DNA of 64,000 nt from Carcharhinus amblyrhynchos (lineage: Eukaryota): the NCBI GenBank assembly GCA_965287045.1, contig OZ336875.1, positions 74,772,001 through 74,836,000 of the forward strand, written 5' to 3'. Of the stretch, positions 7,918 through 22,874 are shown piece after piece; position 1 is the stretch's first letter, and every line of letters begins with the position of its first letter. The notes beneath the pieces are model-generated. The model saw only the letters and a program-made list of their open reading frames with translations, was not told where the DNA came from and ran no database searches. The position numbers and the translations under genes were made by a program.

Positions 7918-9270
7918 GTGGGTAAAACCTAATTTGCTTTGAAGCACCTACTAGTGGTGATGAATGGCACTTGTTTATGAAAATGGCACACATTTTTAAT
8001 TTTGCTGTTGGCTACTATGGTGGGGTGAAGCTTTGGAACACAAATAACAAGGAATTTCTCTTCTAATGGACCTAACTTTTGGAATGAGCCTTTAGCCAGC
8101 CAAGTAGATCTCAAACCCCACATTTGCTCCCCAACAAACTCAACTTCAGCAAATTCTACTTTATACCTACCTTTTTCCCTGTGGATAGGGAAGGAAATGT
8201 GCCACTGTGTTAAATTGGCTAGCATGCTCTGACCCAACACATGATTTAAATGGCTTTTCACCTGACTGGTGTAGGTTATGTTTTGGAGGACGGGTATCGA
8301 AAGTTTGAGCTTGGTTGAAGTGATGAAACAGTCTCCCACGGCCTTTCGGCTGGGTCTTATTTTCAGATTGGGCTCTTGTTGATGTCTGTTGGTTTCTAAT
8401 TTCACGTGTATTGCAGCAAAAGATTTTGTCTCCTTGTTTTGGGGCCCTGGGGAGGGGGATTATTTTCATGAACCCAGGAACCACAGTGACAATGTACAGG
8501 ATTACTTCCATGCTGGATTCACCATGGGCAAGTTCACCTTGCTACTAAAAACAGACTTTTCAACTGAAAAGCAAACTACTTTGGTTTTCTAGCCTCTTTG
8601 TTATCTGACTTGAGCAGAATATTTTGCAGTTAGTTGTGGATCCAGGTTATATTTCTTACTGGATCAAGAGTAACTGGTGAAAGGAAAAAACAAAATATTA
8701 GAACACTAGGCCAGGAAGCTACAATGTGCAAAACAAATACGTGCCTGAATAAAGTCTTGCGCTACCTTTGAATGAACAGTGTTGTGTTGTACTGACTTGT
8801 GGCACCTAGCAGAAAAAACGGAATCTATGTTCGCTAATCGGGATTAGAAGAAACGCTAGTGCTTTAGATCATCCTTGAAGTCCCAACAGATTGTGGCTAT
8901 GGCATTTTTTCTCATACTGAAACAATTGGAAGTTTTTTGTAGATTTACCAAAACTGAACAAAAAAAATTTCCCAGCTAGGTGACGGTTGCAAGCTTTTCC
9001 TTGGTGTCAGTTGCTAACTTCCATCATGCACATCCAATAAAAAATATAACCTGGATCCACAACTAACTGCAAAATATTGTGGTCAAGTCAGATAAGAGGC
9101 TACAAAACCAAAGAAGAATTTTGCTTTTCAATTAGTCTGTTTCTAGTAGCAAGGTGAACTTGCCCATGTTTCTCACTGTCAAGATGTTGTTCCTGTTTTA
9201 AGCAGCTGTTTTCTTTTGGTTTGAATTTTAATGTGGAACTCATCTTGTGAACTGGTTTAAATCCTTTTAG

Positions 9271-9402
9271 GTGTCAAAGGTGGTGCAGCAGGTTACTGGA
9301 GAGTTCTGCTCAAACTCGTCACTGCCAAAGGATCCAGAACTCAGGAGGCAGAAGCTTCAAGACCTGATGTCCCAAATACAAGGGACATGTCATTTCATTC
9401 AG
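9271..9402 (+). CDS. CAPRIN2: CAPRIN2 exon (132 nt): VSKVVQQVTGEFCSNSSLPKDPELRRQKLQDLMSQIQGTCHFIQ; GC donor
   Basis: ccttttag| acceptor; peptide matches recalled LPKDPVLRKEKLQDLMTQIQGTCNFMQ; the in-frame junction requires donor CAG|gcatgt. Confidence 0.92.
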
Positions 9403-10328
9403 GCATGTATTTGTTTTGCACATTGTAGCTTCCTGGCCCAGTGTTCTAATGTTTTTTCCTTTCACCAGTTACTCTTGATCATAAGCTTCAATTGGCATTT
9501 ATGTATTTTTCAAAAGGAACTTGAAATGACAAATAGACTTGTTAGCATTTGAAGGACAGTGGAAAGAGACCATGTGGAATGGCAGTGTATGCAGCCTGCT
9601 CCCCAGGCCTTTTGGGAGCCCTAGATTTGGTACATGTTTGCAGATGACTTGAATTTAAAATAGTTGACTTCAGGAGAACATAGATGAGCTGTGCAAGTAC
9701 ATGTTGACAAGACGACAGAATTTTTTTAAGCTAAATGATAAAATTTGAAATGGTATGGGGAACAGATGTATACACAGATATTTGAATTTGACAGACCGTT
9801 TGGGAAAGTGGTTAAAAAAGTCATTTATTTTATTTAACAAATGTACCTACTCCACATGACCTTCAGTGGTTCAAGGTGGCTCCCATCACTTTGGGCTGTT
9901 GTTGGTGGCCAATAAATCCCTTAGTCTGGAATGTTTTTTCCTTCAATGACATTCCAGCTAAGATCTAACCACATTCTAATTTGAATTCAGGATGCAGCTA
10001 GGAAGAATGATGGGAAATGCGACTGGTTAGTGTTCCATCACCTACCAAAGCTCAGTGCAGAAATGTTGTGCTGAATATTATTGGTTATTAACGGAATGGA
10101 ACACTGCTTGGCTAAAGGCCAAGTGACCAGGATGAAAACCTGTTCAAGTCACTTCACCAGTTATCAGTGCTTTGTTTAGTTTTGTAGTCTTATCTAATGA
10201 ACTAATAATTGCTGGCTTTCCATCCTGTTGCATTAAACAATTTGAATGTTGTGGTACTCAGTTTATTTGAATTTCTAGTCTATTTGAACTTCTAGTCAAT
10301 TTGAACTTTTTTGTTATTACAATTCTAG

Positions 10329-11162: not shown

Positions 11163-11212
11163 ATCATTTGGAGATGCCAGCATTGGATGGGGTAAACACA
11201 GTAAGAAGTCTC
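11163..11212 (-). mobile_element. Solo 3'-terminal ~50-nt piece of the Penelope family at 19641-22825
   Basis: Reverse complement gagacttcttactgtgtttacccca.tccaa...tggcatctcca matches 22776-22825. Confidence 0.75.
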
Positions 11213-19600: not shown

Positions 19601-19640
19601 CTGGGAGGTTTCATGCTCAGATTCTATGCTTGGTTATGCT

Positions 19641-21245
19641 CAGTAAGAAGTCTCAACATCAGCTTAAAGTCCAGCAGGTTTATTTGGTAGCACAAGCCCC
19701 TAGCTTTTGAAGCACTGCCCCTTCATCAGGTAGTGGGAGTTCCATCCACAAACAGGGCATATAAGACAAACTCAAAATAATGGGTGGGATGCATGTCTTT
19801 ACAGGTAATCAAGTCTTAAAGGTACAGACAATGTGAGTGGAGAGAGGCTTAAACACAACTTAGAAGTGTTGTTTGCAGCCAGGAGATTTTGCAAGTTGCA
19901 GGGGTTACAGATAATGTAACATGAACTCAGGATCCCAGTTGAGGCCATCGTTGTTTGCAGAACTTGGCTATTCTCTGCTCAGCAACTCTGAGTTGTCATG
20001 TGTCGTGAAGGCTGCTTTGGAGAACTGTTTCCCAAAGATCAGAGGCTGAATGCCCATGACTGCTAAACTGTTCCCCCAACAGGAAGAATACACTCTTGCC
20101 TGGTGATTGAGCAGTGTTCATTCATCCATGGTCAGTGTCTGCATGTATCCCCAATCTACCATGCCTCAGGACATCCTTTTCCTGCAGTGTATCAGTAGAC
20201 AGCATTGGTCGAGTTGCAAGTGTATGTACTGTGTACCTGGTGGATAGTGTTTTCGCATAAGATGATGGCATCTGTCGATGATCTGTACTACTTGCAGAGG
20301 TTGCTGTGGCAGGGTTGTGTGGTGTCGTGGTCACTTCTCCTGAAGGCAGGATAGTTTGCTGTGGACAATGGTCTGTTTTGAGGTTGTGCGGTTGTTTTGA
20401 AGGCAAGAAGTGGGGGTGGCCTTGGCATGATGTTTGTCATCAATGACATGTTAAAGTCCAGCAAAGACGTCATAGCTTCTCCGCTCTGGGGAAGTACTGG
20501 ACGACGAAGGGTATTCTGTTTGCTGTATCCTGTGTTTGTCATAGGTCAGTGTGATTTTTCACTGGCGTGTCAGAACTGTCGATTTGCCATATCCTGCTCT
20601 TGAGGGCATCTTCTAGCATCTGGAGGCGTCTCTTGTGATCATCTGAGTAGATCCTAAGGCTTGTCCATAGGGGATGGCTTCTTTAACGTGTTTAGGTTGG
20701 AAGCTGGAGAAGTGGAACATGAGGATGTTATCCATGGGCTTGTGATATGGGGGGGTGCTGAGGTGACTGTCCTTGATGGAGATATGTGACCAAGAATGCA
20801 ACCGATTCTGGAGAATAGTCCATGGTAGTCTGGGATGGAACTTGTCATCATATAGTTGTTTGTGATTTGTTCACTGAGTCCAAAGGAAGAAAATGTCATT
20901 GTATCTAGTGTGTAGCATATGTTGAAGGTCCTATGTGGTGAAGAGGTCTTGTTCAAACCTATGCATGAACATGTTAGTATATTGAGATGCAAATTTGTTG
21001 CCTATGGCTACTCTGTCTGGATGCAAACACAACAGGCCATCCCATCGTATCAGGCAATGGGACCCTGTGCAAAAGCCTCTCCGGCTATGTCAAGGACATA
21101 AACCTATTGTACAAGAACCTCCAGCTTTTGTTGCAACACTACAGACTTCCTACAGAAGCTCAGCACGCATGGAGCAGTTGAACCAGGAGCACTCAACGAT
21201 ACAATGGATGTCTCAACATTACATCAGCATCACCCACAAAGATGG
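19641..21245 (-). mobile_element. Penelope-like element, family 1, left arm of palindrome
   Basis: Reverse complement of 21246-22789 along its length; RT-region AMG.KFA.QY.N.FM and HISIKDSHLST motifs on the minus strand. Confidence 0.85.
19696..19737 (-). ncRNA. Degenerate hammerhead ribozyme motif, left-arm copy
   Basis: Minus strand cccactacCTGATGAaggggcagtgcttcAAAAGCTAgggg; same architecture, GAAA also lost. Confidence 0.55.
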
Positions 21246-22825
21246 CAGTTTCAAGACATCCATTGTCACTAAAGCTGGGGGTTCTTTGACAACGTCAAGG
21301 GCATTCTGTATTGTACAGAGGTTCTCGCACAGGGTCTCATTGCCCAAATGATGGGATGGCTGGGTGTGTTTGCATTCAGACACGAACAGCCATGGGGACC
21401 AAATTCACAGTTCCAATATGCCAGCATCTTTCGTAAGTTTGAACAAGATCTCTTCAACACATAGGACCTTCAACCAATGCTATACATTAGATACATCAAT
21501 GACATTTTCTTCTTTGTTGTCATATGTTGACCACTGAAACAACTATGACAACAAGTTCCACCCCACTATCAGACTCACCATGGACTACTCTATGGAATGC
21601 ATTCTTGGACACATCTCCATCAAGGACTGTCACCTCAGCACTTCACTGTGTCGCAAGCCCACGGATAACCTCACGATGCTCCATTTCTCCAGCTTCCCTA
21701 AACCTCTTTTAAAGAAGCCATCCCCTACAGATAAGCCCTCCTTTATACACAGGACCTGCTCAGATGAGGAGGATCACAACAGACACCTCCAGATGCTGAA
21801 AGATGCCCTGATAAGAACAGGATATGGCAGTTGACAGTTCCAATACGCCACAGTGAAAAACCACACTGACCTCAAGACAAACATGGGGCACAGCAAACAG
21901 AATACCCTTTGTCCAAAACTTCCCTGGAGTGGAGAAGTTACAACATCATCTTCAGAGCCTTCAACATTGATGCAGACAGACATCACGCAAGGCCATCCCT
22001 GCACCCCCACTTGCCTTCAAACAACCACACAACCTCAGGCCATTGTCTACAACAAACCACCCAGCCTTCAGGAGAACAGTGATCAAGACACCACACAACC
22101 CTGCCACAGCAGCTTCTGCAAGATTATCAACACCGATGCCATCTCATGAGAAAACCATCCACCAGGTACACAGTACATACACTTGCAACTCAGCCAACGC
22201 AGTCTACTTGATGCGCTACAGGAAAGGATGTCCAGAGGCATGGTACACTGGGGAGACCATGCAGATGCTACGGCAACAGATGAATGAACACCATTCAACA
22301 ATCGCCAGGCAAGAGTGTTTTCCTGTTGGAACACTTCAGCAGTCACAGATATTTGGTCTCTGATCTTTGGGTAAGCATTCTCCAAGGTGACCTTCACCAC
22401 ATGACAACACAGTCGCTGAGCACCAATTTGATAGCCAAGTTCTGCACAAATGAGGATGGCCTCAACCAGGATCTTGGGTTCATGTCACACTATCTGTAAC
22501 CCCCATGACTTGCCTGGACTTGCAAAATCTCTAACTGTCCTGACTGGAGACACTACACATCTCTTTAACCTGTGCTTAACCCTCTCTCCTCACATTGGCT
22601 GTACCTTTTTAAGACTTTACCTGTAAAGACTTGCATTCCATTATTTTGTAAATAGTTTGTCTTTATATGCCCTGTTTGTGAATTGAAATCCCACTCACCT
22701 GATGAAGGACGAGCACTCCAAAAGCTAGTGGTTTGTGCTATCAAATAAACCTGTTGGACTTTAACCTAGTGTTGTGAGACTTCTTACTGTGTTTACCCCA
22801 GTCCAACACTGGTATCTGCACATTA
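21246..22825 (+). mobile_element. Penelope-like element, family 1, right arm (RT C-terminal half, GIY-YIG endonuclease, terminal repeat, tail)
   Basis: TAMGTKF, HISIKDCHLSTSLCRKPTD, TCNSANAVYLMRYRKGCPEAWYTGETMQMLRQQMNEH (GIY-YIG), DGLNQD near the ORF end; frameshifted. Confidence 0.88.
22691..22731 (+). ncRNA. Degenerate minimal type I hammerhead ribozyme motif in Penelope terminal repeat
   Basis: cac-CTGATGA-a-gga...tcc-(A)AAA-GCTA-gtg: intact CUGAUGA box, stem I cac/gtg, stem II gga/tcc, palindromic AGCU helix III; GAAA is mutated to AAAA. Confidence 0.6.
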
Positions 22826-22874
22826 TGGTTATGCTCAAGCAGACTTGGATTGTTCAGTTTCTGTAGTATCAGTA

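What the first reader, a model, noticed from the sequence alone, without database searches (positions are those of the whole stretch)
21010..21385. Both palindrome arms share the same internal inversion junction (nested inversion)
Seen: in the left arm the minus-strand RT motif (IQT...AMG.KFA) joins directly to plus-strand upstream RT sequence (ANTTGHPIVSGNGTLC...TTDFLQKLSTHGAVEPG...TMDVS) at gtctggatgcaaacac (21015-21030). The right arm has the reverse-complement junction gtgtttgcattcagac (21366-21381), 15/16 identical. The layout is A(-) B(+) | B(-) A(+). Inference: the template already carried a 5' inversion plus deletion (a non-autonomous rearranged master), or a first cDNA was re-copied by fold-back during integration. 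Either way it records the mechanism of Penelope integration.
Basis: partly seen in the sequence, partly recalled or inferred. Interest (0 to 1): 0.7.

Follow-up and report, generated by a model that had tools for sequence, protein, structure and literature searches.

The report
Penelope palindrome with self-copied inversion junction
An old, dead jumping-gene insertion forms a 3.2-kb mirror repeat in which the same one-off rearrangement seam appears in both halves, most likely because a newly made DNA strand folded back and copied itself during or soon after insertion, a rare accident rather than a new kind of element.

Summary
Window 19643-22825 is one Penelope-like insertion (Neptune-type linker) with a 12-bp target duplication, a tailed right end and an untailed left end, which is the family norm (45 of 54 two-armed insertions). 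What is unusual is that the head-to-head junction occurs twice, once per arm: 1 of 190 family loci surveyed. The junction was found nowhere else in the 2.9-Gb genome, so there is no rearranged subfamily. The arms are about 7% diverged from the family along their whole length and share almost no private history, so the duplication is about as old as the insertion. Contigs under other organism labels carry the centre and the right junction. Best reading (0.55): an ordinary palindrome whose nascent strand folded back about 30 nt inside the spacer, copied its own junction and re-annealed to the other arm. Main rival (0.3): both arms were read from the RNA of a lost, junction-bearing donor. The scan noted related arm-sharing and fold-back cases elsewhere in this genome, but not this doubled junction.

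The parts
19631..19642 (+). Left target-site duplication (12 bp; its last 2 bases also fit the element end)
   Evidence: Exact match to 22826-22837; also found by the TSD scan
19643..21023 (-). Left arm, segment A: RT C-terminal half, linker, GIY-YIG endonuclease and pLTR, ending at the untailed 3' site
   Evidence: ref 2773 to 1377 by blastn, tail match stops at position 61 of 97; junction read by eye
21015..21030 (.). Left copy of the inversion junction (ref 1348 joined to ref 1002, 1-nt microhomology at 21023)
   Evidence: not bridged by any public contig laid
21023..21247 (+). Segment B, sense (ref 1002-1232), collinear with intact copies
   Evidence: 81% identity to the reference copy
21247..21288 (-). 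Centre: switch to antisense B at about ref 1203 (loop about 30 nt), then a 68-nt deletion to ref 1115-1095
   Evidence: local alignments; bridged by contigs of X1, X2, X4; exact switch point inferred, two readings possible
21293..21317 (+). Private micro-inversion inside B(-) (about ref 1066-1094 in sense), ending at a self-complementary 8-mer
   Evidence: read by eye; contigs of X7 and X4 keep 5 bases that the window lacks here
21317..21373 (-). Segment B, antisense (ref 1059 to 1002)
   Evidence: 93% identity to the reference copy
21366..21381 (.). Right copy of the same junction (shared base 21373)
   Evidence: bridged by contigs of X4 and X7
21373..22789 (+). Right arm, segment A: RT motifs (GTAMGTKF, YIRYINDIF), CX4CxxC-type linker remnant, GIY-YIG endonuclease remnant, pLTR
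   Evidence: ref 1356-2773 by blastn, 77%; translations
22790..22825 (+). One-sided ~36-nt tail
   Evidence: tail match to position 95 of 97
22826..22837 (+). Right target-site duplication

Best explanation
This is one dead Penelope-like insertion whose head-to-head junction is present in both arms, likely because a nascent DNA strand folded back and copied its own junction during integration or in an early round of replication. Shown: one TSD-bounded event, one tailed and one untailed end, an identical junction in both arms, no other copy found, and arms that split about when the element inserted. Inferred steps: (1) both cut target strands primed reverse transcription at the two 3' start sites; (2) the untailed cDNA stopped at ref 1348 and annealed to the far end of the tailed cDNA at ref 1002, which gives the family's ordinary palindrome; (3) the top strand, extending through B, turned back at about ref 1232 onto itself (loop about 30 nt), copied B, the junction and part of A, then re-annealed to the tailed arm through their long complementarity, and ref 1233-1347 was lost as a flap; (4) a deletion and a micro-inversion then broke the symmetry of the centre.
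For: Single event with a 12-bp TSD. Tailed plus untailed ends in 45 of 54 two-armed insertions, matching the two RT start sites and two-strand extension shown in vitro (PMC11167929, parts 1-2 of 4 read). Because the tail is only on the right, a pure self-copy of the left arm cannot give the whole locus, whereas switch-and-return can. Junction unique: 2 exact 17-mer matches, both here; 0 of 40 inspected of the 69 one-mismatch hits and 0 of 37 inspected of the 60 other <=3-mismatch hits are this junction; doubled in 1 of 190 loci. The centre is nearly symmetric, which 6 of 66 other junctions with both ends below ref 2300 are. Switch-and-return excursions to the opposite strand exist in other copies (L107, L157). 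The arms are sisters with a stem of 0.003 against tips of 0.07-0.08 (support 0.74), and CpG decay went the same way at 17 sites and the opposite way at 13, so there is no sign of an aged donor.
Against: The ancestral single-junction state was not observed. Microhomology at the inferred turn is only 1 nt (or 4 nt on a second reading that needs an extra 42-nt deletion), and no strong self-priming hairpin ends there. A near-symmetric centre could also come from two cDNAs running off the same RNA 5' end. Arms of ordinary palindromes share rare variants (5 of 35 rare deletions against 0.22 expected), so a common template for both arms is plausible in this family, as the rival needs. The window's arms share a 5-6-nt frameshifting deletion at ref 1825. 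There is only one example, and the sister relation of the arms is weakly supported (an earlier tree put L172 between them).
Confidence: 0.55

Rival explanations
1. Second-generation copy: a transcript through an earlier ordinary palindrome (antisense B joined to sense A, pLTR and tail) was mobilised in trans, and both target strands copied that RNA, so both arms inherited its junction. The donor was later lost or never fixed.
For: Arms of one insertion come from one lineage: 444 shared non-majority states against 114 for arms of other loci, over 53 loci (much of this is subfamily structure). In 6 loci an inverted piece ends within 15 nt of where the other arm starts, which suggests both primers sit on one RNA. 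The arms share a deletion at ref 1825. PLE mobilisation in trans is reported (PMC3846280, passages).
Against: No donor or sibling found. None of the 9 other family loci with the same deletion, nor 13 loci with two alleles shared by the arms, carries the junction. That deletion site recurs, and these arms are unusually deletion-rich, so it may have arisen twice. Tiny shared stem on the tree. The model needs two stops within about 30 nt (6 of 66 elsewhere) or a common RNA end.
Confidence: 0.3
2. Late arm-to-arm gene conversion copied the junction and its neighbourhood from one arm to the other long after insertion.
For: The deletion at ref 1825 and substitutions at 1852 and 1858 cluster within 35 nt and are shared by both arms, which fits a short conversion patch. 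Earlier scan notes propose homogenisation at other loci (unchecked here).
Against: The arms are not more alike near the centre: arm difference 0.142 and 0.115 within 500 nt of the junction against 0.117 and 0.118 farther out; 88 of 112 aligned bases match across the junction itself. The centre is shared with contigs under three other organism labels.
Confidence: 0.07
3. Both cDNAs independently switched template at the same hot spot.
For: Two other insertions have junctions nearby (ref 983/1363 in L054-L055, 967/1412 in L281).
Against: Those differ by 11-60 nt at base level (for the first). The junction has 1-nt microhomology and recurs in 0 of 124 other junctions.
Confidence: 0.03
4. Assembly artefact.
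For: No public contig laid bridges the left junction.
Against: Arms are only 84% identical, the TSD is intact, and contigs of three studies under other organism labels carry the centre or the right junction with 93-97% identity.
Confidence: 0.02

Closest known systems
Endonuclease-bearing Penelope-like elements with an inverted 5'-truncated copy, one-sided 30-40-bp tail and TSD (PMC8557442 and PMC3846280, passages)
   Same: Head-to-head arms, one-sided tail, TSD, RT followed by GIY-YIG endonuclease.
   Different: The junction is doubled and the centre is locally tail-to-tail; not seen in the passages read, nor in 189 other loci here.
Two-site, two-strand priming by Anolis Poseidon in vitro (PMC11167929, parts 1-2 of 4 read)
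   Same: Two RT start sites that define the tail; both target strands are cut and extended. This fits the tailed/untailed ends here.
   Different: Different clade. The paper leaves the later steps unvalidated and, in the parts read, does not treat inverted junctions.
LINE-1 twin priming and foldback inverted duplications (PMC10191854 and bioRxiv 10.1101/2024.12.14.628481, passages)
   Same: Second-strand priming gives inversions; self-annealed 3' ends with small hairpins prime inverted duplications.
   Different: Those foldbacks copy 52-220 bp of host flank beside the target. Here the copied DNA is the element's own internal junction, and B stops 115 nt short of A.
Quasi-palindrome template switching, Ripley model (PMC8604942, passages)
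   Same: Two polymerase hops, one arm templating the other, with return to the original template.
   Different: Described there for arms of about 10 bp with spacers of a few bases; here 1.4-kb arms and at least 230 nt of spacer copied, with a non-homologous first hop.

Membership tests
EN+ Penelope-like element | Reverse transcriptase core | tested here: met
   Two related copies hit Pfam RVT_1 at E 5e-6 and 9e-5, below the curated cut-off; 2 of 5 proteins hit, 0 of 6. Motif remnants are visible in the window; motif names recalled.
EN+ Penelope-like element | C-terminal GIY-YIG endonuclease with two cysteines inside the core | tested here: met
   Atlas top clusters at 0.95-0.96 carry PF01541 on 17-21% of members (a lead). 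The core with two Cys reads directly in L135, L056 and in window remnants. No Pfam hit.
EN+ Penelope-like element | Inverted 5'-truncated copy with a one-sided 30-40-bp tail | tested here: met
   definition from PMC8557442 passages.
EN+ Penelope-like element | Target-site duplication | tested here: met
   12 bp; 31 of 54 two-armed insertions show one of 9 bp or more, allowing one mismatch.
EN+ Penelope-like element | Hammerhead ribozyme in the pLTR | tested here: inconclusive
   Rfam scan of 1 kb of L148 found none. A core-like 10-mer (recalled motif) lies at 22699-22708 and 19720-19729.
EN+ Penelope-like element | RT groups with PLE references in a tree | not tested
   No reference PLE proteins were fetched.
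Neptune clade | CX2-5CxxC motif in the RT-EN linker (shared with Nematis, absent in Penelope/Poseidon) | tested here: met
   CX4CxxC in L056, L100, L135, L143; eroded in the window arms; definition in PMC8557442 passages.
Neptune clade | Phylogenetic placement against Nematis | not tested
   No tree with reference clades.
Rearranged non-autonomous subfamily | Several dispersed copies share the junction | tested here: not met
   Not every mismatch hit was inspected, and a diverged single donor could be missed.
LINE-1-type twin-priming inversion | Inverted piece ends where the direct piece begins (recalled from Ostertag and Kazazian 2001) | tested here: not met
   B ends at ref 1232, A begins at ref 1348. 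Six other loci of the family do meet it.
Quasi-palindrome template switch | Derived arm extension relative to an observed ancestral state | tested here: inconclusive
   Geometry fits, but all public contigs laid show the derived centre.

The most novel reading that the evidence does not exclude
The doubled junction is a trapped integration intermediate. Penelope primes both target strands at the two start sites of one RNA, joins the two cDNA ends, and its nascent strands switch freely among RNA, partner cDNA and themselves. This one scheme would explain the tailed/untailed ends, same-lineage arms, twin-priming-like jumps, excursions and this locus, and would answer how PLE inverted repeats form.
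Probability: 0.3. Interest if true: 0.6.

Novelty: new variant of a known kind. Interest (0 to 1): 0.38.

Why it matters
How Penelope-like elements make their inverted repeats is stated as unresolved in the papers read (PMC8557442, PMC11167929). A junction present in both arms shows that one arm's inner part and the other's had a common template after the junction formed, which rules out two fully independent cDNAs at this locus. The single locus has no evident function and cannot fix the timing. The family survey made along the way (tailed/untailed ends in 45 of 54, same-lineage arms, six twin-priming-like jumps) is the more reusable result, and it gives testable predictions for the existing in vitro system.

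Tried and rejected
Hypermutation of the right arm near the centre (15% against 7%) vanished when sites near indels were masked (7.4% against 6.4%, p=0.62); rejected as an alignment artefact. L308 shares 4 of 8 rare alleles with the arms but lacks the deletion and does not group with them; not used as a sibling. L002/L003 span the junction query by BLAST but join 19 and 11 nt away. A cluster of 28 identical 3-mismatch hits on C9 is not this element (14 of 28 inspected). The hairpin scan found no strong self-priming stem at the turn. No RNA holder was listed. No contig of X1, X4, X5 or X10 covers 21001-21013 at 90% likeness; a hole proves nothing. The PDB sequence search gave nothing useful; Pfam was blank; Rfam found no hammerhead. 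The IQ-TREE run timed out and FastTree was used instead. Spacer length against deletion density across 42 loci was not significant (rho -0.20, p=0.21). Literature searches listed no paper on a doubled internal junction in a PLE; I saw listings and passages only, no supplements, and the older subscription papers on Penelope structure were not read.

Full report
Setting. The window lies at G000:C6:74772001-74836000 in a 2.92-Gb assembly. Earlier scan notes call the genome shark-like (not checked). A self-comparison shows one long inverted repeat, 19641-21080 against 21317-22789, 84% identical over gap-free columns.

Observation. Both junction 16-mers are at the stated coordinates and the quoted peptides read as stated. 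I used one near-full-length genomic copy as a ruler (L058:3333-6106, 'ref'). The locus maps as A(-) 2773 to 1348, B(+) 1002 to 1232, B(-) about 1203 to 1002, A(+) 1348 to 2773 plus tail (base-level ends read). In 52 copies of the 108-locus set this region is one collinear block. The junction shares one base. B(-) carries a 68-nt deletion and a ~29-nt micro-inversion that B(+) lacks, and ref 1233-1347 is missing from the locus.

What the element is. Related copies give weak RVT_1 hits (2 of 5 proteins), an endonuclease region nearest to GIY-YIG clusters, two cysteines in the endonuclease core and a CX4CxxC linker. By the definitions in PMC8557442 (passages) this is an endonuclease-bearing Penelope-like element of Neptune or Nematis type; no tree with references was made. 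The whole palindrome sits between two copies of a 12-bp target duplication (19631-19642, 22826-22837), so it is one insertion. The right arm ends in the ~36-nt tail and the left arm does not.

Family context. A 23-mer from the RT has 916 exact matches. I mapped 108 loci first (99 stretches covering the first 100 listed hits on C1-C2, 8 BLAST hits, one of them dropped as a duplicate, one further BLAST hit and the window), then 190. The sample is not random: it favours well-preserved copies, some 3-kb loci are cut, and short second arms cannot show a doubled junction. Head-to-head junctions occur in 114 of 190 loci (126 junctions). Of 54 two-armed insertions scored, 45 have one tailed and one untailed end, and 31 have a TSD of 9 bp or more. 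This matches the two RT start sites and the extension of both target strands reported for an Anolis PLE (PMC11167929, parts 1-2 of 4 read). So the palindrome is ordinary. The doubled junction is not: only the window shows it.

Is there a rearranged subfamily? No. The junction 17-mer has 2 exact matches, both here, and 69 with one mismatch; 40 of the 69 were inspected and none is this junction. A 22-mer with up to 3 mismatches gave 60 other hits; 37 were inspected, none is this junction, and 14 of the rest are the same string as a non-family cluster. BLAST scored 40 of 1223 candidates; its only other spanning hits, one duplicated insertion, join 19 and 11 nt away. The left arm itself was not among the 40, so this search can miss diverged copies. 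Nine other family loci with the arms' 5-nt deletion and 13 loci with two alleles shared by the arms lack the junction.

When did the junction double? Each arm is about 7% from the family majority at non-CpG sites, evenly along its length. The arm-to-arm difference is no lower near the centre (0.142, 0.115, 0.117, 0.118 outwards). CpG decay went the same way at 17 sites and the opposite way at 13. On a 92-row tree the arms are sisters with a stem of 0.003 against tips of 0.07-0.08 (support 0.74); a 64-row tree placed L172 between them. The window's arms share 10 non-majority states against 3.3 for other arms, similar to ordinary palindromes (444 against 114 over 53 loci). The duplication is therefore about as old as the insertion, and a late conversion or a long-decayed donor is unlikely. 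One result cuts the other way: a 5-6-nt deletion at ref 1825 and two nearby substitutions are shared. The deletion recurs in the family and these arms are very deletion-rich (16-22 per kb against a median of 3.6 over 186 other arms), so it may be independent, inherited or a short conversion patch.

Is it real DNA? Contigs of X2, X4 and X7 (organism labels A, B, C; three studies) cover 21149-21375, 21168-21450 and 21293-21450 with 5-14 other letters. X1 covers 21159-21308 with none but may be the source sample. The centre and the right junction are thus bridged and predate the split of those sources. The left junction was not bridged.

Mechanism. Take an ordinary palindrome: untailed arm to ref 1348 joined to a tailed arm from ref 1002. 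If the top strand, while extending through B, turns back at about 1232, copies itself through B, the junction and into A, and then re-anneals to the tailed arm, the product is the observed order, with the ~30-nt loop on the top strand and the tail on the right. This is a Ripley-type double template switch (PMC8604942, passages) and resembles the small-hairpin inverted duplications at L1 sites (PMC10191854 and 10.1101/2024.12.14.628481, passages). Support: uniqueness; a near-symmetric centre (6 of 66 comparable junctions elsewhere); switch-and-return excursions in L107 and L157. Weakness: only 1 nt of microhomology at the turn, or 4 nt on a second reading that needs a further 42-nt deletion; no strong hairpin there; a single case. 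All four steps are inferred, and integration cannot be told from an early replication. The main rival is that both primers copied the RNA of an earlier palindrome that already held the junction. It fits the evidence that both arms share a template, and mobilisation in trans is reported (PMC3846280, passages), but it needs a vanished donor with one offspring and two stops close together. I put these at 0.55 and 0.3.

Novelty. Inverted arms, tail and TSD are known PLE traits. PMC3846280 already reads palindromes at inverted junctions as signs of self-priming. Five literature searches listed nothing on a doubled internal junction, within the limits of the library and of what I read. Earlier scan notes describe arm-sharing and one fold-back into flank elsewhere in this genome; look-ups by words, sequence and place found no note on this structure. 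Verdict: a real, rare structural variant of a known element class; interest 0.38.

Noticed in passing
L055:4399-4787, L097:2643-2722, L142:4227-4241, L273:665-735, L281:3733-4200, L296:3795-4196: An inverted piece ends within 15 nt of where the opposite arm starts (7 of 29 candidate segments; the seventh, L125, is a locus-edge artefact). This is the LINE-1 twin-priming geometry and suggests both primers act on one RNA.
   Followed up: partly
L107:779-1171 and L157:2066-2151: An arm leaves the antisense track, copies 84-357 nt in sense, and resumes within 6-32 nt of where it left: template-switch excursions.
   Followed up: partly
window 19643-22825 and L279:2619-5537: The most deletion-rich arms of 188 (16-23 small deletions per kb, median 3.6) belong to two long, nearly spacer-less palindromes. 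L279 was picked by a deletion pattern, and the trend over 42 loci is not significant.
   Followed up: partly
54 two-armed loci: One tailed and one untailed end in 45; the tailed arm is the longer one in 16 of 28 simple cases, so arm length is not tied to the start site.
   Followed up: yes
window 11166-11212: A 47-nt minus-strand stub of the same family's 3' end with tail and nothing else.
   Followed up: no
L052:273-440, L174:3827-4009, L177:939-1273, L324:1573-1892: Miniature near-perfect palindromes made only of the pLTR ends, with arms meeting within 0-8 nt.
   Followed up: no
L054 and L055 (contigs C914, C1380): The same insertion occurs on two small contigs beside 63-65-nt tandem arrays; L054 has two later inserts that L055 lacks.
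   Followed up: no
window 8523-9480: A second inverted repeat (87-91% identity, about 230 nt of arm in two pieces) with no match to this family.
   Followed up: no
G000:C9:83847764-85581611 (L205-L218): At least 28 copies of a non-family sequence spaced 20-70 kb apart in both orientations, which looks like a large segmental array.
   Followed up: no
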